Source of the DNA: a virus
Direction: 5' to 3' (one strand)
Length of the DNA stretch: 64,000 nt
IMG/VR virus record: IMGVR_UViG_3300020395_000006
Location: 4,265-68,264 of that record
The notes below the pieces were generated by a model. That model was given only the letters and a program-made list of their open reading frames with translations, did not search any database and was not told the origin of the DNA. Made by a program: the position numbers and the translations under genes. Every line of letters starts with the position of its first letter. Positions within the stretch are counted from its first letter, which is position 1. Shown here one piece after another: positions 318 through 52,395 of this stretch.

Positions 318-550
318 TAGTTTTCGCAGTAGTTGTTTACAATTAGATCCTCAACTTCATCTAGTTGAGTATGACTTAGATGTGACACTAATTCATCAAT
401 AACGACTCGTAATTGGTCAGGGTAATCATCAATAACTTCCATAAGATTGTTACCAATTAGTTCCTGTCTTGTACGAATATTTTTGATAATTACCTTTGCA
501 TCTAATTCACTATTTGTTGCATTAGGATTTGCATGTATGAATAGTTTCAT
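317..550 (-). CDS. hypothetical protein (77 aa)
   Basis: ORF track; TAATG coupling at both ends. Confidence 0.7.
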   Translation of the reverse strand: MKLFIHANPNATNSELDAKVIIKNIRTRQELIGNNLMEVIDDYPDQLRVVIDELVSHLSHTQLDEVEDLIVNNYCEN

Positions 551-687
551 TAGTTCCTCACAAATACATTTCGTGCATTGGAATACTTTGCTTGCATTAG
601 TTTGATGGCATGATGGATTGATACAGCAGTAATCTGTTCATCAATCCTATAACCCTCAACCAATGCTGAAACTGTAAAAGTTTTCAT
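550..687 (-). CDS. small hypothetical protein (45 aa)
   Basis: Manually translated MKTFTVSALVEGYRIDEQITAVSIHHAIKLMQAKYSNARNVFVRN; directly downstream of the promoter at 712-768. Confidence 0.65.
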   Translation of the reverse strand: MKTFTVSALVEGYRIDEQITAVSIHHAIKLMQAKYSNARNVFVRN

Positions 688-707
688 AGTTGAATTCTCT
701 TGGATAC

Positions 708-1493
708 TTATAGTATAGACGCTAGAGTTGCCTTTGAAACCTTGCTTGTGACAGTTTGTTCAGTGGTTGCAATCCTTTCCTTTGCCTTAGTATAATATTC
801 CTTTGACTTCTCGCATCCTAGATACTCCCTACCAGTTCTAATGCTTGCAACGGCAGTTGATCCACTACCTACAAAACAATCCAATACAACGTCACCTACG
901 TTAGTATATGCCTTGATTATACGCTCTAGTATCTCAACATTCTTAGTGGTAGGATGCCACCCTATAAACTCTTTACTGGTAGTATGATTATTCTTTTCCC
1001 ATACACATGTAGGTATGGTTCCCTGAGTATGTGCTTTACCAGTTCTAAGATTTTTCTTGACTTTTCTCTCAATTCTAATATCATTAGCATTGAATAGAAA
1101 CTTCTCACCCTTAGAATAGCACCATGCGTATTCATGCTTACGAGCAAAGTTATCTTTAGATCTACCACCCCAGTTATAAGACCAAATAATCTCATTCTGT
1201 GGAAATATACCTTTAGTTCTATTCAATGCAAGTTTATATAATAAGAATGATTCAGTCTTGAGAGTACCCCATACAACTAGCATACGCTCATCCTTGAGTA
1301 CCCTAATGCACTCCTTAGTCCATTCTAAACACCATTTGATGTATTCTCTCTCATCCTCCCATCTATCCCATCCTTTACCACCATCAAATCCTATATTATA
1401 TGGTGGATCAGTCAAGACTAGATCTACTGAGTTGTCAGGTATTCTTTTCAAATACTTGAGACAATCCATATTTGAAATTGTGTTGTGCTTCAT
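708..1493 (-). CDS. DNA amino-methyltransferase (N6-adenine/N4-cytosine, beta class)
   Basis: Catalytic DPPY motif near the N-terminus, HPTTK, and SAM-binding VLDCFVGSGST near the C-terminus. Confidence 0.92.
   Translation of the reverse strand: MKHNTISNMDCLKYLKRIPDNSVDLVLTDPPYNIGFDGGKGWDRWEDEREYIKWCLEWTKECIRVLKDERMLVVWGTLKTESFLLYKLALNRTKGIFPQNEIIWSYNWGGRSKDNFARKHEYAWCYSKGEKFLFNANDIRIERKVKKNLRTGKAHTQGTIPTCVWEKNNHTTSKEFIGWHPTTKNVEILERIIKAYTNVGDVVLDCFVGSGSTAVASIRTGREYLGCEKSKEYYTKAKERIATTEQTVTSKVSKATLASIL
712..768 (-). promoter_or_regulatory. early sigma70-type promoter with upstream box
   Basis: AACCACTGAACAAACTGTCACA-N7-TTTCAA-N16-TATACT; the box differs from 4438-4461 at one of 24 positions. 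Confidence 0.65.
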
Positions 1494-2017
1494 GCTAATA
1501 CCTCGTCAATAGATGTGAACCAGTCAGGAATATTTGTACCAATGGAGTCTAAGAAAAATGTTCCTGAGTTTACTTTCTTACCACCATGCTGATTATATAA
1601 CCACTCACCCTTTTCATTTTGTACTTCTAAATTATTCTTTACATCATCCTTAGTTGCTCCATAGAATTCTATTCTATCAGGAAATATAGCAAGAAATACA
1701 ACAACATCATAATCTTGTGCAGGTCTTAGTTGTTGCCACCTAAAATGGGTGTTAGTTCCTGACCATAACATAGACCCCTTGATTTCTACCTTCTTACCAT
1801 TGATTTTTCTATCATGGTCAGAATTATCAGGTTTGGTTACATTATAACCTAACTGATTACAGTACTCTTGAACTATTGCTTCAAAAGCAGCACCTTTTTT
1901 CTTACTACTCATGTGCTTATATATTTGAAACACTGAATTCTTATAGTGACAGTTTTCAATCTCAGCAAGTGCTTTTGCATGTGTAGTAAATGTAGTAATA
2001 GCAGACTCAGATAACAT
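1490..2017 (-). CDS. putative PD-(D/E)XK endonuclease, type II restriction-like
   Basis: KGAAFE helix, then DHD-x8-EIK catalytic-like motif; 4-bp overlap with the methyltransferase start. Confidence 0.6.
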   Translation of the reverse strand: MLSESAITTFTTHAKALAEIENCHYKNSVFQIYKHMSSKKKGAAFEAIVQEYCNQLGYNVTKPDNSDHDRKINGKKVEIKGSMLWSGTNTHFRWQQLRPAQDYDVVVFLAIFPDRIEFYGATKDDVKNNLEVQNEKGEWLYNQHGGKKVNSGTFFLDSIGTNIPDWFTSIDEVLA

Positions 2018-2040
2018 TGAATTTCTTTGTTGTTATACTC

Positions 2041-2068
2041 ATTATAGTCACTATTATATCATAATCAA
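2041..2068 (-). promoter_or_regulatory. sigma70-type promoter for the nuclease-methyltransferase pair
   Basis: TTGATT-N16-TATAAT, with a variant upstream box (GCCAATTTTTATACTGGTATA) at about 2075-2095. Confidence 0.6.
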
Positions 2069-2097
2069 TGAAATTATACCAGTATAAAAATTGGCAT

Positions 2098-2126
2098 AAG
2101 AAAACCTACCGTATAGGTAGGTTTCT
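2098..2126 (-). terminator. intrinsic terminator after the KTSC-like gene
   Basis: Hairpin AAACCTACC-TATAC-GGTAGGTTT followed by TCTT on the minus strand. Confidence 0.6.
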
Positions 2127-2177
2127 TGCGAGATTATGCGAAGTTCAAAATATTCAGTTGTCTTTGTTGCAGTTAGA

Positions 2178-2399
2178 TTATACTGCTTGTAGTTGACCTT
2201 CCTTTCTGTATGAAGCGATCAATCTACCTACACTCTCACCTTTTGCAAGAGCGTTTTCTAGTCCAGTGCGAACTAGGTTAGCATCTTTTGCTAAGAATCC
2301 GTACTCCTTATCAGCAGAAGTAAATGTCACACCAACTGCATTGTCAGTACCAAAAGATACAGCAGCGATAGAGGATGACTTAGGGAAACGCATAATCAT
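2178..2399 (-). CDS. KTSC-like small putative RNA-binding protein
   Basis: Pattern SSSIAAVSF...VGVTF...EYGF...ESVGRLIA resembles the KTSC consensus (SSxI..v.Yd..L.V.F..Y.Y..S.G.f); start placed at Met15 (Met17 also possible). Confidence 0.55.
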   Translation of the reverse strand: MIMRFPKSSSIAAVSFGTDNAVGVTFTSADKEYGFLAKDANLVRTGLENALAKGESVGRLIASYRKEGQLQAV

Positions 2400-2428
2400 A
2401 ATAAAGTAATGGAACATGCCTAGTTTAT

Positions 2429-2594
2429 AGTCATACGACATGACTTGAATTACACTATCAGAGAATTGAACTCTATCAACTGTTCGATCAAGACAGACTC
2501 ACCAGAGTAGTGCATGAAGTAGCATGGTCAAGAGGTGCTTCACCTGATCCTAACCCATTTACTGAGTCTAATTACAGGTACTAACTCACGCTAC
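2429..2594 (-). ncRNA. structured RNA 2 / long 5' leader containing a tRNA-like cloverleaf
   Basis: Begins 7 nt after a -10 box with GUAGCGUG, which pairs with CAUGCUAC; cloverleaf-like domain at 2451-2513 with a canonical T-arm; 3' hairpin AGUCAU/AUGACU. Confidence 0.6.
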
Positions 2595-2600
2595 AAATGT

Positions 2601-2658
2601 ATGATAGTCGATTTAGTGTCAGTTTCAATAATGAATGTGACACTAAATCAACCGTCAC
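2601..2658 (-). promoter_or_regulatory. early promoter with upstream box, driving RNA 2 and the KTSC-like gene
   Basis: GTGACGGTTGATTTAGTGTCACA-N7-TTGAAA-N16-TATCAT; a 12-bp inverted repeat flanks the -35. Confidence 0.65.
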
Positions 2659-2664
2659 AAGAAG

Positions 2665-3073
2665 AAATGGGAGTGGGGCATCAACATAGGTTTCACCTAT
2701 ATGCCCAAATTTACCTCATGGGAATCGCTTACACCTGAACCCCTACTAAACAACAAGTAACCATATAAGGAGTGTACGTGGCAGATGTCTGACCGAATAG
2801 GATTTCTCCGACAGTCTCAGGGATGCCAACGTATGCCATATCCAAAATGATTGAACCCTTGTTAGAGTTCGGGCATGAGAACCACATATCCCAGACGGAC
2901 TTACACCATGAGTTTTTAGAACCTCACCCTAATGGAGTTTTGGTACTATGGATGCCAAATGCGAGGAGTCAGTGCATTACCCAACATCATATCTAAGATT
3001 TACAGGACTTACAACAATAAGAGCAAATCGTTGATGTACGCCTGATGTCCTAGTAGTTGTGAACCTCGCTCAT
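2665..3073 (-). ncRNA. putative large structured non-coding RNA (about 410 nt)
   Basis: No credible ORF; consensus promoter directly upstream; many stems with G-U pairs and GAAA-containing loops on the minus strand. Confidence 0.65.
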
Positions 3074-3234
3074 GTACCTATTATAGTCGGTTGACTTTGG
3101 TTGTCAAGTAATGTCAGGACATCCTGATAATCTTCAGAATTGATCCCTATCATCATCTCATAATAGGTAGCATAATCAATACCTAACTTTCTGGCATATA
3201 ATTCATGGTCTAAATGGTTGAATTCCTTGTCCAT
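3070..3234 (-). CDS. small hypothetical protein (54 aa)
   Basis: Manually translated MDKEFNHLDHELYARKLGIDYATYYEMMIG...; follows the cobS-like gene. Confidence 0.55.
   Translation of the reverse strand: MDKEFNHLDHELYARKLGIDYATYYEMMIGINSEDYQDVLTLLDNQSQPTIIGT
3080..3107 (-). promoter_or_regulatory. consensus sigma70 promoter
   Basis: TTGACA-N16-TATAAT pointing into the non-coding region. Confidence 0.8.
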
Positions 3235-3263
3235 GATTAGTTTGGTATCGTTGAATACTAAGT

Positions 3264-4382
3264 CTATGTATTAGACTTAGTATTTACATCATCATCAAGT
3301 TTAGAGTATAGTTGCATGAATGATGTTTTAGTCTCATCATCAAATCGGTTGAGACACATTTCTAATGCTTTCATCTTATCACCAAATATTTGATATGCTC
3401 GCATAATGTGAACAAGTCTTCTAGTTGAGATAATTTCATCTATACCTCCATCATTGAAAGTTTTGCGAACAATATCCGCCCAGTCAGTTAGGTAAACAAT
3501 GAATTTTTCATGGTCACCAGTCATAGGAATACCAATAGATTCACATAACTTTCTGAGTATCTTGTTCTCAGTAGCAGCAGTAGGATATTCTTGCTCAAAT
3601 GTAATAGGGAATCGCTCTAAGAACGCTTCATTCAATACATTAGTGCCAATGAAACGTCCATCATCACTACCTTTACCTTTAGTGTTAGCAGTAGCAATGA
3701 CATTGAACCCATTAGCAGGTTTGATGTACTCACCTATCTTCTTTAGGAAGATCCCTTTGCCCTCTAGAATCGGTTGTAAGCATAGTATTTTGTTAGATGC
3801 TAGATCAATCTCATCTAGTAATAAGATCGCTCCACGCTCCAATGCTTCAATGACTGCCCCATTATGCCAAACAGTCTGACCATTGACAAGTCTAAATCCA
3901 CCTATCAAATCATCTTCATCAGTCTCAACAGTTATGTTGACTCTAATAAGTTCTCTGTTTAGTTGTGAACATGCTTGCTCTACTCCAAAAGTCTTACCAT
4001 TACCTGACATACCAGTAATGAATGTAGGATAGAATTCTCTTGAAGCAATTACTTTCTTGAGTGAAGTAAAGTTGCCAAAAGGAATAAATGTATTATCCTT
4101 ACTAGGTACTAAATTCTGTGACTCAGTTTGAGTCTTTTGAAGTTTAGTATTAGTTGGAGTTGGAGTTGCTTGATAGGTAGCAGTTGGAATCTCCTTCTCA
4201 GGATCTTGAATATTCCACTTACCCCTGCTAACCTTCCACTGGTTCAGGTACTTAGTAATAGTCTGATAAGATACATCAGGATTCTTAGCAACATACTCTT
4301 TGACCATATCAGCATTTAGTTCTGTACCAAATTGCGATTTGATAGAGTCAAGGTGTGGTTGAAAATTGATTGTTCTAGGCAT
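3264..4382 (-). CDS. cobS: CobS-like MoxR-family AAA+ ATPase
   Basis: Walker A GMSGNGKT, Walker B LLLDEID, ATANTKG, NEAFLERF, ISTRRL. Confidence 0.88.
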   Translation of the reverse strand: MPRTINFQPHLDSIKSQFGTELNADMVKEYVAKNPDVSYQTITKYLNQWKVSRGKWNIQDPEKEIPTATYQATPTPTNTKLQKTQTESQNLVPSKDNTFIPFGNFTSLKKVIASREFYPTFITGMSGNGKTFGVEQACSQLNRELIRVNITVETDEDDLIGGFRLVNGQTVWHNGAVIEALERGAILLLDEIDLASNKILCLQPILEGKGIFLKKIGEYIKPANGFNVIATANTKGKGSDDGRFIGTNVLNEAFLERFPITFEQEYPTAATENKILRKLCESIGIPMTGDHEKFIVYLTDWADIVRKTFNDGGIDEIISTRRLVHIMRAYQIFGDKMKALEMCLNRFDDETKTSFMQLYSKLDDDVNTKSNT

Positions 4383-4403
4383 AATCTTTTGCTGTATGTG
4401 TTT

Positions 4404-4461
4404 ATTATAATCTGCACTATGGTGGGATGTAACCCACCTTGTGACAGTTTGTTGAGTGGTT
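4404..4461 (-). promoter_or_regulatory. early promoter with upstream box
   Basis: AACCACTCAACAAACTGTCACA-N7-TTACAT-N17-TATAAT. Confidence 0.65.
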
Positions 4462-4464
4462 TTC

Positions 4465-6684
4465 CTATGCTATTTGTTTTGCAAAGGATTGAAGGATGAA
4501 TTTATTAGTCTTCTTACTCTTGAACATCTTCCTAAATGCCTGTGATACCTGACGTTTTGAAGATCCATCTTCTACATCCTCAAGTATATCTGAGTCAACA
4601 TTTAGATCCTTTTGAGGAATAATGTAAAACTTGTTGAATGACTCCATAGTTAGATGTGCATCACCTTTTCTAATTGCTGCCCTATACTCATCATAATCAT
4701 TGTATGAATGATAACCATAAGCATTATAGAAATGCTTCAACCCTCCACGCTCAAGTATTCTAAATCCAATGAATGAAACATTACTGTCTATTGAATCCTT
4801 TACTGCTTCAATTAGTTTCATAGTAAAGTCTCCTCTTGAATGTCCCATTGCAAAAGTCTTACCAGTTTTTCTATTTCTGATAATAGTATTGTAACCGATT
4901 GCTCTAGTTCCATACTTATCTAAGTTATAACCATAAACTTGATTAGTATCTGATCTATCAATATTGTATGATGAATGTTGTCCTTCTCCATCAGTCAATA
5001 CAATTACATGGCACTTCTGTAAACCATTGTTTTTTATCATTGTATTTACTAATTGTCTACTGCAAACAATCGCTTCATTCAATGGTGTTCCTGATAGTGA
5101 GAATCCTCTAGGATATGGCATATTATAGTCAACAAATGATGAAACAGTATTCCATATATTGAGAAGTTGTTGATCTAGTTCTTTAGTCTTTGCTTTAGAT
5201 GATAATACATTTACCATTCTAAAATGACCTTGAACATTGATGTCTCCCTCTTTCCATTCTTTGATAAGATCGGTATCTTTCATGTCTCTGTATGGTCTTA
5301 CTCCACCAACATCTTCATTATTATTTTCTAGTTTTATTGACCATGCGTCATTACTAAAAGCATATACTTCAAATGGTATTTGTACTTTCTTACAGAACCA
5401 TACTAATTGAAATAGTTGCTTTACTGTATCCTTTAGGATATGTTGCATTGAACCACTCCAGTCTAATAAGAATACTAAACCATGATTCTTGCCATCAGGT
5501 ACAGTTGTAATCTTCTTGAATATATCTTCATTATACATGTAAGTATGTAATTTAGAAGTATCAAGTACACCAGTCCTAGCAGTTGCTTGTCTAGCATAAG
5601 AATCAGCAGATTTCTTCATCTCGAATTCTTTTACAAGATAGTTTACTTCTTTAGTAACACTTCTCTTGAATTCTTTATACTCATTACAAGAACTCGCATA
5701 TCTTTCTTTAGACCATTCTTCTGTAATTGCTTCAGTAAAATGTCTATCAAGGTATCCTTTTATCTCATCAAAAGTAACAAGAACATTGTCCATATTCATT
5801 TCAGGTAATGTAACATATACATTCTCATTGTTATAATGCTTATCCTGTTCATTGCATAAATCTTCTACATTTCTATCAAATTGTTCTTGTGTATTTGATA
5901 CATCTATGTTACCAAACTCACCTGCTTGAGTATTAGTTGGTTCACCAGACTCACCCTCTTCAATATCATTTTCTTCACCAAACTCTCCACCTTCAGTATC
6001 ATTTTCTTCTGAATCTTCAGACTCTTCTTTACTATTATTAGGTGCAGGTCTATACTCTACTTGCTCACTATCTCCCTCGCTTGACTCATCATCAGAATTA
6101 GCGTTCATAGACTCCTTCATAGTCTCTTGCATTTCTTTAGTATAAGCATGTAGATCCTTAGATATATCTAAAACTTCATCAAATGTATCTGCCTTAGTCA
6201 TTCTTGTTATAAACTCTTCCTCTTCATCAGTGAAGTTTATATCTACAAAGTTACCTATCTTGAAGTATAGATTGATCTTATCAATAGGTTTCATCCAGTC
6301 AATATTCTTACCTTCAACTTCAAATAGATCATTATTATGTAACTCAGAGTATGCTTCATGGAAATCTCTGTTTAGTCCTCTATATCTTTGCTTTATTTTT
6401 CTCTCAATGCGTGCATCCTCAACCACATTGACATAACCATGTGGAACATGCCTATAAGCATCTTCAGCAATCCATAGTCTATCAGGAGTATATAAGGCAT
6501 GTCCTACCTCGTGAGCAACTAGCATGTCATATACTACCTCACTTGCCTTCTCCCACATAGGTAGAATCAATAGTCTTTTCTTTACATCAAATGATGCAGT
6601 TTCTACATTTTTATGCTCAATGATAATATCTTCAGTAGCAAGTAATCTTGCTAAATTTCCTTTGATTTCAATGTTGATTGGCAT
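4465..6684 (-). CDS. CobT-like protein: N-terminal HEXXH metallopeptidase, acidic linker, C-terminal vWA domain
   Basis: HEVGH and NVVEDARIE; MIDAS motif DWSGS, GTPL, LTDGE. Confidence 0.85.
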   Translation of the reverse strand: MPINIEIKGNLARLLATEDIIIEHKNVETASFDVKKRLLILPMWEKASEVVYDMLVAHEVGHALYTPDRLWIAEDAYRHVPHGYVNVVEDARIERKIKQRYRGLNRDFHEAYSELHNNDLFEVEGKNIDWMKPIDKINLYFKIGNFVDINFTDEEEEFITRMTKADTFDEVLDISKDLHAYTKEMQETMKESMNANSDDESSEGDSEQVEYRPAPNNSKEESEDSEENDTEGGEFGEENDIEEGESGEPTNTQAGEFGNIDVSNTQEQFDRNVEDLCNEQDKHYNNENVYVTLPEMNMDNVLVTFDEIKGYLDRHFTEAITEEWSKERYASSCNEYKEFKRSVTKEVNYLVKEFEMKKSADSYARQATARTGVLDTSKLHTYMYNEDIFKKITTVPDGKNHGLVFLLDWSGSMQHILKDTVKQLFQLVWFCKKVQIPFEVYAFSNDAWSIKLENNNEDVGGVRPYRDMKDTDLIKEWKEGDINVQGHFRMVNVLSSKAKTKELDQQLLNIWNTVSSFVDYNMPYPRGFSLSGTPLNEAIVCSRQLVNTMIKNNGLQKCHVIVLTDGEGQHSSYNIDRSDTNQVYGYNLDKYGTRAIGYNTIIRNRKTGKTFAMGHSRGDFTMKLIEAVKDSIDSNVSFIGFRILERGGLKHFYNAYGYHSYNDYDEYRAAIRKGDAHLTMESFNKFYIIPQKDLNVDSDILEDVEDGSSKRQVSQAFRKMFKSKKTNKFILQSFAKQIA

Positions 6685-6941
6685 GTTTCTTTGTTCGTTG
6701 TCCTTATATTAGTTCTTTTATACTTGTTTTCAATATCCCTTGTGACACTTTCTAAACTGTCTGCATCTACCTTGCGAATTATCTCATAGTTGTCTAGTCT
6801 CATATCTAGTACAAGTTTTACGTCTTTTCTCGGTTCCTGACCTAATCTAACACATGCTGTAAAGTGTGTTCCACTTACAAAACAGACTTCCCCAGTGTCG
6901 TCACCTATTTGTAGGATGTCGCCTAGATGAACCTTTTTCAT
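6651..6941 (-). CDS. hypothetical protein
   Basis: ORF track; start moved to MKKVHLG so that it lies downstream of the promoter at 6963-6990. Confidence 0.6.
   Translation of the reverse strand: MKKVHLGDILQIGDDTGEVCFVSGTHFTACVRLGQEPRKDVKLVLDMRLDNYEIIRKVDADSLESVTRDIENKYKRTNIRTTNKETCQSTLKSKEI
6706..6761 (-). promoter_or_regulatory. early promoter with upstream box
   Basis: GACAGTTTAGAAAGTGTCACA-N7-TTGAAA-N16-TAATAT. Confidence 0.6.
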
Positions 6942-6962
6942 AGGATAGATAAACTTGATACC

Positions 6963-7003
6963 ATTATACATGAGTTGCTACTCTTAGCAATACATGTTAC
7001 CAT
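6963..7003. promoter_or_regulatory. overlapping divergent sigma70 promoters
   Basis: Minus strand TTGCTA-N16-TATAAT; plus strand TTGCTA-N17-TACCAT; both -35 boxes come from the inverted repeat TTGCTA-ctct-TAGCAA. Confidence 0.55.
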
Positions 7004-7024
7004 ATCTATACAAGATCAAATAAA

Positions 7025-7747
7025 ATGTTCTTAGGTCAAACTATAACATGTGTAATACCTGCTAGGTTATCTTCTACAAGATTTCCTAGAAAGGCATTGG
7101 CAAAAATAAAAGGTAGGGAATTAGTGTTGAGATGTGCTGACATTGCAGCAAAATCAAAATACCTAGATAATATTATCATTGCCACCGAGGACAATGAAAT
7201 AAAAGAATTATGTGAGAAGAACAACTATGATTCCATACTCACCAATAAGCATTATACATGCACACATAGAGTTTCAGAAGTATCTAAGACTCTCCAAAGT
7301 GATTTCATTATTAATTATCAGGGAGATGAACCATTACTAAAATATAAATGGATAGATGATATTATAAAATTTGGTGTTACTTATAGATATGATATGGTGC
7401 AAGCAATAAGAGATTTAGATGAAGAAGAAATAGAAGATAATGATGTAGTAAAATGTGTAATTAGTAATGGATTAGTTACACATAATATGAGAAGTGTAGA
7501 ATTATGTAATAATAACGTCAAATCTATGATAGGTTTATATCTTTATAAAAAGAATGTTATAGATGATTTTTCACATTTAGATATGACATTTGTGAAACAA
7601 TGGCAAGGTTTAGATACTCAAGGTTTCGTAGGAAAATATAACATAGTACCATATAATTTGAATTGTAGTAAATTTAGGGCAGTAGATCGTCCTGAACATA
7701 TAAAAGAAATAGAAGAAATGTTACCATTTAGTAAGGAAATTATATGA
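7025..7747 (+). CDS. kdsB: 3-deoxy-manno-octulosonate cytidylyltransferase-like (CMP-Kdo synthetase)
   Basis: VIPARLSSTRFPRKAL, IATE, THRVSE, INYQGDEP, IGLYLY, AVDRPEH. Confidence 0.85.
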   Translation: MFLGQTITCVIPARLSSTRFPRKALAKIKGRELVLRCADIAAKSKYLDNIIIATEDNEIKELCEKNNYDSILTNKHYTCTHRVSEVSKTLQSDFIINYQGDEPLLKYKWIDDIIKFGVTYRYDMVQAIRDLDEEEIEDNDVVKCVISNGLVTHNMRSVELCNNNVKSMIGLYLYKKNVIDDFSHLDMTFVKQWQGLDTQGFVGKYNIVPYNLNCSKFRAVDRPEHIKEIEEMLPFSKEII

Positions 7748-52274: not shown

Positions 52275-52302
52275 TGGTTTCTCCAAAGGTAGGGTTTTTA
52301 GT

Positions 52303-52395
52303 CCCCGTTCCTTCAGTCGGCTTTTGCGTCCCATTTGGGATGAACGATTCCGTTCCGAGTCGGCTTACTTGCGACCTCTTCTGAGGTTGAACGTA
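52303..52395 (-). ncRNA. tandem glutamine riboswitch (glnA / Downstream-peptide class)
   Basis: Two units CGUUCA-hairpin-CGCAA..AGCCGACU..GGAACGG with different P2 stems (ACCUC/GAGGU, UCCC/GGGA). Confidence 0.8.

What the first reader, a model, noticed from the sequence alone, without database searches (positions are those of the whole stretch)
2451..2513. 63-nt tRNA-like cloverleaf without CCA
Seen on the minus strand: GCACUA/UAGUGU acceptor-like stem; CUC-UGGU-GAG miniature D-arm keeping the GG; CUGU...ACAG arm with an irregular loop (CUUGAUCGA); canonical T-arm UAGAG-UUCAAUU-CUCUG. It has no proper anticodon arm and no encoded CCA. Inference: a tRNA elbow mimic rather than a decoding tRNA, for example a signal for RNase P/Z processing or a decoy for tRNA-targeting host defences. 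A decayed tRNA pseudogene is the alternative.
Basis: partly seen in the sequence, partly recalled or inferred. Interest (0 to 1): 0.7.

Follow-up and report, generated by a model that had tools for sequence, protein, structure and literature searches.

The report
tRNA-shaped module in cyanophage leader
A 63-base stretch in front of a small gene of a T4-like cyanophage really does fold like a stripped-down tRNA, and related phages carry a larger tRNA-shaped element in the same slot, so it is probably a working RNA module, not a decoding tRNA or a chance fold.

Summary
The cloverleaf is in the sequence exactly as described (window 2451-2513, minus strand). Standard detectors do not call it a tRNA: ARAGORN finds none, Rfam gives no hit at E<=10, and the free-energy z-score is -0.37. 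It is still unlikely to be chance.

- It lies in a 287-nt non-coding leader of a T4-like cyanomyovirus, directly 3' of a conserved structured module with strong covariation ('B').
- In related uncultured phages a 119-122-nt tRNA-like unit ('TL-119') occupies the same slot. In part of them it follows B through the same UUCA linker. It shares a 7-bp acceptor, a UGGU-looped mini hairpin, an identical UUCAAUU T-loop, and no CCA.
- A model built from TL-119 alone ranks the candidate first in the window: 14 bits, E=0.19 window-wide, 0.0003 for the 100 nt after B.
- A descriptor fitted after the fact matches 2 of 1000 shuffled windows.

Only two other copies of the compact form exist, in ~98% identical genomes, so selection on it cannot be measured. 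No relative carries an ordinary tRNA there (0 of 86 loci).

Best reading: a non-decoding tRNA mimic in an mRNA leader, most plausibly a host RNase P/Z processing site. That function is inferred, not shown. A decayed remnant remains a real alternative.

The wider locus is a shuffled array of conserved RNA modules absent from Rfam.

The parts
2450..2514 (-). Compact tRNA-like unit. It comprises a 7-bp acceptor (2514-2508 with 2457-2451), a mini D-type hairpin with a UGGU loop (2507-2498), an anticodon-arm-like hairpin (2496-2480), a 4-nt variable stretch (2479-2476), a T-arm with a UUCAAUU loop (2475-2459), one unpaired A (2458) and a discriminator-like A (2450). No CCA.
   Evidence: Sequence. 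Descriptor controls. Top hit of TL-119 model R1 at 2452-2512, 14.0 bits. Pair tallies with TL-119. ARAGORN only at the lowered threshold.
2517..2596 (-). Module B, a conserved structured leader element. Closing helix P1 is 2594-2587 with 2526-2519, followed by a bulged A, a 5-bp extension, an inner helix with a variable insert, and an unpaired 10-nt bulge (2541-2532). That bulge is identical in all copies, but the search pattern required it.
   Evidence: 85-93% identical to P-SSM2 and uncultured relatives. 50 distinct units. Covariation: 91.8% of cells paired against 77.2% in shuffles (0 of 500 reach it), and 12 of 23 pairs have changes on both sides. CM R2 scores 101 bits; it is the only copy in the window.
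2603..2656 (-). Long hairpin inserted between modules A and B relative to P-SSM2. Its 3' half carries a sigma-70-like site (TTGAAA, 16 nt, TATCAT; 2628 to 2601). That site would start transcription about where module B begins.
   Evidence: Hairpin seen. Promoter-like consensus match 10 of 12. A consensus match only, not evidence of function.
2658..2747 (-). Module A, a conserved structured element. A 22-nt core (2720-2741), fixed by the search pattern, is followed by a covarying hairpin and a C/U-rich tail. It is usually single-copy per phage genome.
   Evidence: 7 of 17 predicted pairs have changes on both sides. One copy in each of 5 of 5 records searched; L016 holds two. No match in 185,579 prokaryote species genomes.
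2178..2441 (-). Downstream gene of 87 aa (PHROG 4357, unknown function). The tRNA-like unit ends 9 nt before its ATG. The true start may be the internal ATG at 2417, because relatives have CTG at the first position.
   Evidence: ORF list. PHROG hit E=2.1e-8 over residues 21-85. L042-type relatives.

Best explanation
The 63-nt element is a genuine tRNA-shaped RNA module in the 5' leader of a small gene of a T4-like cyanomyovirus (Kyanoviridae, near P-SSM2). It keeps the parts of a tRNA that make the acceptor/T-arm stack and the elbow. These are a 7-bp acceptor, a 5-bp T-stem with a canonical T-loop, and a GG-bearing loop. It lacks a real D-arm and a usable anticodon loop, so it does not decode.

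It is the compact, lineage-specific counterpart of a 119-122-nt tRNA-like family (TL-119). TL-119 sits in the same slot in related phages, after structured module B or module A and about 50 nt before a start codon.

Inferred mechanism: the leader is transcribed with the gene. Host RNase P cuts at the 5' side of the mimic and RNase Z or RNase E at its 3' side. This separates the structured upstream RNA (module B, and A where present) from the mRNA, and may release a small tRNA-like RNA that can receive CCA.

Shown: the structure elements, their positional and architectural match to TL-119, and covariation in TL-119 and in module B. Inferred: transcription of this copy, any cleavage, and any benefit to the phage.
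For: 1. Context. The window is a T4-like cyanophage. The unit lies in a 287-nt non-coding stretch on the coding strand.

2. Same slot in relatives. 13 TL-119 instances (7 distinct sequences) were found first, and 10 distinct once the A-linked forms were added. Their 5' neighbour varies. Some follow module B through the same UUCA linker (L002, L010, L080). Others follow B with a different linker (L024, L028, L076), a terminator-like hairpin (L040, L073), or module A directly (L289, L319, L330).

3. Shared architecture in 13 of 13 distinct sequences (10 TL-119, 3 compact).
- 155 of 156 acceptor and T-stem cells are standard pairs.
- Acceptor pairs 4 and 7 and T-stem pairs 1-4 change on both sides between forms.
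- All have the UUCAAUU loop and a closing G-C.
- All have a UGGU loop. It is closed by GU/AC, by GC/GC in L330, or by CUC/GAG in the window.

4. TL-119 itself is structured.
- MFE z=-3.44.
- 97.8% of cells are paired, against 35-58% when partners are slid.
- 5 of 40 pairs change on both sides.

5. Model R1, built without the candidate, ranks it first of 18 hits in the window: 14.0 bits, E=0.19. E=0.0003 for the 100 nt after module B.

6. Descriptor controls: 2 of 1000 shuffles match. There is one unrelated hit in 2.8 Mb (both strands) of cyanophage loci.

7. The two substitutions seen in the relatives fall in the loop. One turns the C/A closing mismatch into U-A.

8. Homology with L042-type phages and with RNA contigs of two runs breaks at 2452/2453, the 3' edge of the unit. 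The unit therefore behaves as a discrete cassette.

9. From recall, no call: tRNA genes of marine picocyanobacteria generally lack encoded CCA, so its absence fits the host.
Against: - The fold is no more stable than shuffles (z=-0.37).
- There is no tRNA hit in Rfam at E<=10 or in ARAGORN at default settings.
- R1's window-wide E=0.19 is not significant. The next hit scores 12.5 bits.
- The descriptor was fitted after the fact.
- An unpaired A (2458) interrupts the T-stem/acceptor stack, which TL-119 does not have.
- The centre of the compact unit does not align with TL-119 better than shuffled centres do (66 of 500 reach the score). Homology therefore rests on the ends and on position.
- Only 3 copies exist, in genomes ~98% identical. 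One change per 63 nt equals the background rate: 12 of 724 and 34 of 2359.
- No transcript ends, cleavage or CCA addition were observed. No RNA contig of the four runs laid covers 2474-2507, which is not evidence either way.
Confidence: 0.42

Rival explanations
1. A decayed remnant. It is either a degraded phage tRNA-Ile(GAU) gene or an internally deleted TL-119 unit, carried along in the leader without function.
For: - ARAGORN at the 90% threshold calls tRNA-Ile(GAU), and its mitochondrial mode calls a D-arm-reduced tRNA-Ile.
- The middle arm has anticodon-arm dimensions.
- The compact form is confined to one ~98%-identical lineage.
- It shows no more conservation than its flanks.
- The large conserved central domain of TL-119 is missing.
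Against: - No ordinary tRNA was found at or near this slot in 86 of 86 related loci.
- blastn of the unit against 50,697 phage records gives only a 22-nt match at E=4.
- All helices are intact in all three copies, and both substitutions are loop or pair-restoring changes.
- The sister family TL-119 is under structural selection.
Confidence: 0.25
2. A chance cloverleaf in an AU-rich structured leader. Its resemblance to TL-119 would then come only from generic tRNA-like features.
For: - z=-0.37.
- T-arm plus 7-bp acceptor alone occurs in 20% of shuffled windows.
- ARAGORN's low-threshold hit rate is 0.46 per shuffle.
- R1 gives E=0.19 window-wide.
Against: - The full descriptor matches 2 of 1000 shuffles.
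- The candidate is the top R1 hit, and it lies in the 100 nt where TL-119 lies in relatives (E=0.0003).
- It shares the UUCA linker, the UGC.CU start, the UGGU loop, the 9-nt T-loop block and the UAG.GUAA end with TL-119.
Confidence: 0.1
3. A tRNA mimic that acts in trans. It could be a decoy or competitor for host tRNA-binding enzymes or tRNA-targeting defence nucleases, or an unusual tRNA with an altered anticodon loop that escapes them.
For: - It has the elbow features and an anticodon-arm-sized hairpin with U at the position-33 equivalent.
- From recall, no call: phage tRNAs with altered anticodon loops have been proposed to evade anticodon nucleases.
Against: - The loop has C and G where tRNAs have a purine at 37.
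- TL-119 has no anticodon-like arm at all.
- No defence or anti-defence gene was identified beside it.
- Nothing here tests binding.
Confidence: 0.1
4. Mainly a DNA-level feature. It would be one of several conserved intergenic cassettes that serve as homologous-recombination joints for shuffling small genes, as described for PeSL promoter/stem-loop motifs in T4-type phages. RNA shape would then be secondary.
For: - Module B occurs with mismatched 5' and 3' flanks in L037 and L074, which are chimeras.
- Indels start and end at module borders: L241 lacks 2668-3053, and there is a breakpoint at 2452/2453.
- A hairpin with a sigma-70-like site lies just upstream.
- PeSL concept: PMC2839356 and PMC4122927, seen as search listing, abstracts and passages only.
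Against: - G-U pairs and compensatory changes are strand-specific and preserve RNA helices.
- The tRNA-like units are found in only two gene contexts, so they are not widely shuffled.
- The PeSL papers read do not mention cyanophages.
Confidence: 0.1

Closest known systems
Canonical bacterial/phage tRNA (Rfam RF00005; ARAGORN)
   Same: 7-bp acceptor, 5-bp T-stem with a UUCAAUU loop and closing G-C, a 4-nt variable stretch, an anticodon-arm-sized hairpin with U before the triplet, GG in the D position, and no encoded CCA.
   Different: - The D-arm is reduced to 3 bp plus a 4-nt loop.
- C and G follow the triplet.
- There is a C/A closing mismatch.
- One unpaired A lies between the T-stem and the acceptor.
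- It is not detected by Rfam or by ARAGORN at default settings.
TL-119, the 119-122-nt tRNA-like unit of uncultured P-SSM2-like phages (defined here; not in Rfam)
   Same: Same slot after module B with the UUCA linker in part of the members, the same acceptor start and end, a UGGU mini hairpin, an identical T-loop, and no CCA.
   Different: TL-119 replaces the anticodon arm with a long helix carrying two conserved hairpins. The compact unit has an 17-nt hairpin instead, and its centre shows no significant alignment to TL-119.
tRNA-like domain of tmRNA
   Same: An acceptor/T-arm stack with a stemless or minimal D-loop substitute, and a long helix in place of the anticodon arm (TL-119 form).
   Different: - There is no tag reading frame. 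Candidate frames are broken by a 2-nt indel between variants.
- There is no G-U at the 3:70 position.
- ARAGORN finds no tmRNA, even at a lowered threshold.
tRNA-like processing signals cut by RNase P/Z (mascRNA of MALAT1, plant mitochondrial t-elements, mitochondrial tRNA punctuation); recalled, no call
   Same: A non-decoding tRNA mimic embedded in a longer transcript between two functional RNA parts.
   Different: Those are eukaryotic or organellar. Cleavage here is untested.
PeSL promoter/stem-loop cassettes of T4-type phages (PMC2839356, PMC4122927; abstracts and passages read)
   Same: Conserved intergenic motifs at the borders of swapped small genes in hyperplastic regions. A hairpin plus a sigma-70-like site lies just upstream here.
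   Different: PeSLs are short terminator-plus-promoter motifs. The modules here are larger RNAs with covariation, and one of them is tRNA-shaped.

Membership tests
tRNA | 7-bp acceptor stem | tested here: met
   UGCACUA pairs with UAGUGUA, 7 standard pairs including one G-U. In the alternative register there are 6 pairs plus C/A.
tRNA | D-arm with a 3-4 bp stem and a loop of about 7-11 nt containing GG | tested here: not met
   The stem is 3 bp and the loop is the 4-nt UGGU. GG is present, but the arm is far too small.
tRNA | Anticodon arm of 5 bp plus a 7-nt loop, with U33 and a purine at 37 | tested here: not met
   The arm has 4 bp plus a C/A mismatch (5 bp in L241). U33 is present, but position 37 is C and position 38 is G.
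tRNA | T-arm of 5 bp plus a UUCRANY loop | tested here: met
   UAGAG-UUCAAUU-CUCUG.
tRNA | Score above threshold in tRNA detectors | tested here: not met
   ARAGORN at default settings finds 0. Rfam gives no hit at E<=10. ARAGORN calls it only at the 90% threshold, which gives 0.46 hits per shuffled window.
TL-119 tRNA-like family (defined here) | Acceptor, UGGU mini hairpin and T-arm with a UUCAAUU loop, without CCA | tested here: met
   all features are present in 13 of 13 distinct sequences, including the window.
TL-119 tRNA-like family (defined here) | Position 3' of a stable helix (module B, module A or a hairpin), in the leader of a small gene | tested here: met
TL-119 tRNA-like family (defined here) | Long central helix with two conserved hairpins | tested here: not met
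   It is absent from the compact unit. The centre alignment is not better than shuffles (66 of 500).
TL-119 tRNA-like family (defined here) | Significant covariance-model score | tested here: inconclusive
   14.0 bits, the top hit, but E=0.19 for the window. E=0.0003 for the 100 nt after module B.
tmRNA | Tag reading frame, pseudoknots, and alanine identity (G-U at 3:70) | tested here: not met
   No tmRNA was found by ARAGORN. There is no conserved frame and no 3:70 G-U.
RNase P/Z-processed tRNA-like signal | Cleavage at the 5' and 3' edges of the mimic in vivo or in vitro | not testable with these tools
   Only assembled RNA contigs were available, and they cannot show ends.
PeSL-type cassette | Stem-loop followed by an early promoter at the borders of swapped genes | tested here: inconclusive
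   The window has a hairpin plus a 10-of-12 sigma-70-like site before module B. Across B contexts a -10-like hexamer precedes B in only 6 of 55, against 3 of 55 in a control position.

The most novel reading that the evidence does not exclude
The tRNA-shaped unit is one interchangeable part of an undescribed modular RNA locus of P-SSM2-like cyanomyoviruses. The locus has a usually single-copy constant element (A) plus accessory structured modules. These are B, the tRNA-like units, at least two pseudoknot-like modules and others. In this reading tRNA mimicry recruits host tRNA-maturation enzymes (RNase P, RNase Z, CCA-adding enzyme). Those enzymes would cut out, cap or stabilise an abundant phage RNA, or punctuate its mRNAs. 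It would be a phage counterpart of the mascRNA or tRNA-punctuation principle.
Probability: 0.22. Interest if true: 0.8.

Novelty: new variant of a known kind. Interest (0 to 1): 0.58.

Why it matters
Non-decoding tRNA mimics used as processing or recruitment signals are well known in eukaryotes, organelles and RNA viruses. They are hardly documented in DNA phages outside tRNA clusters.

Here a tRNA-shaped module sits inside an mRNA leader, next to other conserved structured modules that are not in Rfam. If host RNase P/Z acts on it, cyanophages would be using the host's tRNA-maturation machinery to shape their own transcripts.

It would also give a concrete entry point to a whole array of uncharacterised RNA modules. 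That array lies in the most variable region of very abundant marine viruses.

If it is only a remnant, it still marks where such modules are gained and lost.

Tried and rejected
**Detector and homologue searches**
- The Rfam gathering scan of the window finds only a glutamine riboswitch elsewhere. Rfam at E<=10 on 2200-2800 gives only weak miRNA-type hits on the 2603-2656 hairpin.
- Rfam finds nothing relevant on a TL-119 locus or on four module-A loci at E<=1.
- blastn of the unit against the phage collection gives no real match.
These were mostly ordinary tRNA T-arms, and none extends beyond 21 nt of similarity. The 21-nt match in L082 lies in a tRNA cluster of an unrelated phage and is not homologous.
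- The search for related loci with the 87-aa protein found one distant relative only.
- The compact-form pattern has 0 matches in IMG/VR. It has 41 in metagenome contigs, of which 39 are chance and 2 are real.

**RNA evidence**
- Metatranscriptome contigs of four runs do not cover 2474-2507. This is not evidence of absence, because these runs are dominated by other phage genotypes.
- Their very high word depth over module A (466-7375, against 3-78 over flanking genes) may reflect many genotypes sharing A. Contig depth cannot rank expression.

**Ideas tested and dropped**
- The compact unit as TL-119 with a simple internal deletion: the alignment is not significant.
- Module B always at the transcript start: rejected as a general rule (6 of 55 against 3 of 55).
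- The locus as a divergent tmRNA: no support.
- From recall, the C/U-rich tail of module A looks like the single-stranded motif of cyanobacterial Yfr1. There is no Rfam support.
- Host origin of modules A or B: 0 matches in 185,579 species genomes.

**Tools and literature**
- Four literature searches and passages of three papers gave no description of these elements.
- The supplementary tables of PMC10690425 list 10,006 candidate viral RNAs from IMG/VR. They could hold them, but I could not see them.

Full report
**What the window is**

Genes on the minus strand around the finding match cyanophage families. These include CobS/porphyrin-type ATPase, a peptidase and a DNA methyltransferase. blastn finds only Prochlorococcus/Synechococcus myoviruses and uncultured marine relatives. 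The window is 64 kb of a 68-kb viral record that is estimated to be about 30% complete.

The finding lies in a 287-nt stretch (2442-2728) on the coding strand without an ORF of 40 aa or more there. It ends 9 nt before the ATG of an 87-aa gene of unknown function.

Yes.

Two refinements:
- The acceptor extends to 7 bp (U2514-A2451).
- The 'irregular' arm can be read as 5 bp plus a 7-nt loop, with U before a GAU triplet. The closing pair is C/A in the window and U-A in relative L241. The two positions after the triplet are C and G, unlike tRNAs.

**Is it more than chance?**

Generic measures say no:
- z=-0.37 for the fold.
- ARAGORN finds nothing at default settings.
- Rfam gives no tRNA match even at E<=10.
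- ARAGORN's call of tRNA-Ile(GAU) at a 90% threshold is matched by 0.46 hits per shuffled window.

Specific measures say yes:
- A T-arm with a 7-bp acceptor in a 55-95-nt span occurs in 200 of 1000 dinucleotide shuffles. With a GG tetraloop hairpin directly after the acceptor it occurs in 2 of 1000. This descriptor was written after seeing the candidate.
- On 1.41 Mb of cyanophage loci, with lengths of 50-200 allowed, the same descriptor finds only the compact units, TL-119 units and one unrelated place.

**What surrounds it**

Just upstream on the same strand are two non-coding blocks. They are 85-93% identical to P-SSM2 and to uncultured phages, in different gene contexts.

*Module B (2517-2596).* A pattern scan gave 76 matches in 73 IMG/VR loci and 50 distinct units of 57-128 nt.
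- On 32 of these, the 57-80-nt forms with the two chimeras included, the helix model is strongly supported.
  - 91.8% of cells are paired, against 77.2% in shuffles (0 of 500 reach it) and 26-44% when partners are slid.
  - 12 of 23 pairs change on both sides.
- Unit lengths differ by steps that are not multiples of three, so it is not coding.
- Even the ~98% identical relatives show compensatory changes in its inner hairpin.
- The core is invariant by construction of the search.
- L037 and L074 carry 5' and 3' closing strands from different contexts. B is therefore also a recombination joint.

*Module A (2658-2747).* It occurs in more than 119 IMG/VR loci.
- It has a covarying hairpin, with 7 of 17 pairs changing on both sides.
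- It is present once in each of 5 of 5 records searched. These include the 252-kb P-SSM2 genome and a complete 202-kb genome. One locus, L016, has two copies.
- Neither A nor B occurs in 185,579 prokaryote species genomes.
- Rfam has no match for either.

*The hairpin between A and B.* A 54-nt hairpin (2603-2656) is absent from P-SSM2. Its 3' half matches a sigma-70-like promoter that would start transcription at about the first base of B. This is a consensus match only.

**The key comparison**

In 13 loci a 119-122-nt unit, here called TL-119, occupies the slot that the candidate occupies in the window. Later scans added three more, giving 10 distinct sequences.

It follows B through the same UUCA linker, follows B through another linker, follows a terminator-like hairpin, or follows A directly. 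It precedes a small gene by about 50 nt. Compared with P-SSM2 it is an insertion between B and that gene.

Its parts are:
- a 7-bp acceptor;
- a two-pair hairpin closing a UGGU loop, with one compensatory change in L330;
- a long helix bearing two conserved hairpins in place of the anticodon arm;
- a 5-bp T-stem with the same UUCAAUU loop;
- no CCA.

It folds better than shuffles (z=-3.44). 97.8% of its cells are paired, against 35-58% when partners are slid. 5 of 40 pairs change on both sides. The diversity is low and the structure was derived from the same alignment.

ARAGORN and Rfam do not recognise it. Among GenBank phages only one uncultured record has it.

**Linking the candidate to TL-119**

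Across the 13 distinct sequences (10 TL-119, 3 compact), 155 of 156 acceptor and T-stem cells pair. Both-sided changes separate the forms. The linker, the start and end of the acceptor, the UGGU loop and the T-loop block are shared.

A covariance model built only from TL-119 puts the candidate first in the window. It scores 14.0 bits, E=0.19, and the runner-up scores 12.5 bits. For the 100 nt after module B, E=0.0003.

The central parts do not align better than chance (66 of 500). The link therefore rests on the tRNA-like ends and on position.

**How widespread is the compact form?**

It is rare. It has 0 matches in IMG/VR and two in metagenome contigs, L205 and L241. Both come from genomes about 98% identical to the window.

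Each has one substitution in the unit, and both fall at the start of the loop. That equals the background rate, so selection cannot be judged.

Homology with L042-type phages has the same downstream gene behind a different module. It breaks at 2452/2453, the 3' edge of the unit. RNA contigs of two runs break at the same place. L241 lacks 2668-3053, including module A. The unit therefore behaves as a cassette in a region built from swappable modules.

**What it most likely does**

It keeps what RNase P, RNase Z and the CCA-adding enzyme recognise: the acceptor/T-arm stack, the T-loop and a GG loop. It lacks what decoding needs. It lies between a structured leader and a coding region.

I therefore favour a processing signal that separates module B (and A) from the mRNA, possibly releasing a small tRNA-like RNA. 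This is inference. No ends, cleavage or CCA addition were seen. The contigs available cannot show them and do not cover this genotype.

The main rival is a decayed remnant, either of a tRNA-Ile-like gene or of a TL-119 unit. The other rivals are a chance fold, a trans-acting decoy, and a recombination module acting chiefly at the DNA level.

**Comparison with known systems**

- It is not a tRNA by the tests applied. The D-arm, position 37 and the detector scores all fail.
- It is not a tmRNA. There is no tag frame, no alanine identity pair and no ARAGORN call.
- It works most like tRNA-like processing signals such as mascRNA or organellar t-elements. This is recalled, not tested.
- Its surroundings resemble in behaviour the PeSL cassettes of T4-type phages. 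For PMC2839356 and PMC4122927 I saw the search listing and abstracts. I read passages of PMC4122927 only, and those passages do not mention cyanophages.
- Four literature searches found no description of these cyanophage elements.
- The supplements of a large viral RNA-motif survey (PMC10690425) could not be seen and may list them.

**Verdict**

I rate it a new variant of a known kind, a non-decoding tRNA mimic. It is of moderate to good interest, mainly because of the family and the modular RNA locus it points to.

Noticed in passing
window 2658-2747 (-); loci L338-L434: Module A is a structured element whose 22-nt core was the search pattern (so its invariance is by construction), followed by a covarying hairpin. 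It is present once per genome in 5 of 5 records, is absent from prokaryote genomes and is not in Rfam. Short RNA contigs over it have very high word depth in four metatranscriptome runs. The downstream gene differs between genomes.
   Followed up: partly
window 2517-2596 (-); loci L009-L081: Module B has a covarying closing helix. An unpaired 10-nt bulge and an inner helix accept inserts of at least four kinds, giving units of 57-128 nt. Chimeric copies show that it is a recombination joint. There is one copy in P-SSM2, two in MH319750 and none in G002.
   Followed up: partly
loci L343, L342, L014, L353, L371 and others: Further recurrent intergenic modules follow module A in other phages. Two of them look like H-type pseudoknots whose two helices both covary between loci. 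Another ('C') is a hairpin with a UUCAG loop inside a covarying outer helix, and it also occurs as an insert in module B.
   Followed up: no
window 52302-52348 (-): Glutamine riboswitch aptamer (Rfam RF01739, 37 bits, gathering score 35). It is the only Rfam family above threshold in the window.
   Followed up: no
window 3080-3107 (-): A perfect sigma-70-type consensus (TTGACA, 16 nt, TATAAT; 12 of 12). It lies at the end of a 54-aa ORF, upstream of an ~800-nt stretch (2442-3263) that holds only very small ORFs without PHROG matches.
   Followed up: no
window 2668-3053 versus L241: A ~98% identical metagenome relative replaces these 386 nt with about 55 nt. The replaced stretch includes module A and two small ORFs. 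This is an indel whose one end lies beside the 2603-2656 hairpin.
   Followed up: partly
window 2417-2441 (-): The annotated ATG of the 87-aa ORF is CTG in L042-type relatives. The PHROG match starts at residue 21. The real start may be the ATG at 2417, which would lengthen the leader by 24 nt.
   Followed up: no
L082 7211-7231 (-): An unrelated phage has a T-arm-like block identical over 21 nt to the candidate's T-arm and acceptor start. It lies in a gap of its tRNA cluster where ARAGORN calls no tRNA.
   Followed up: partly
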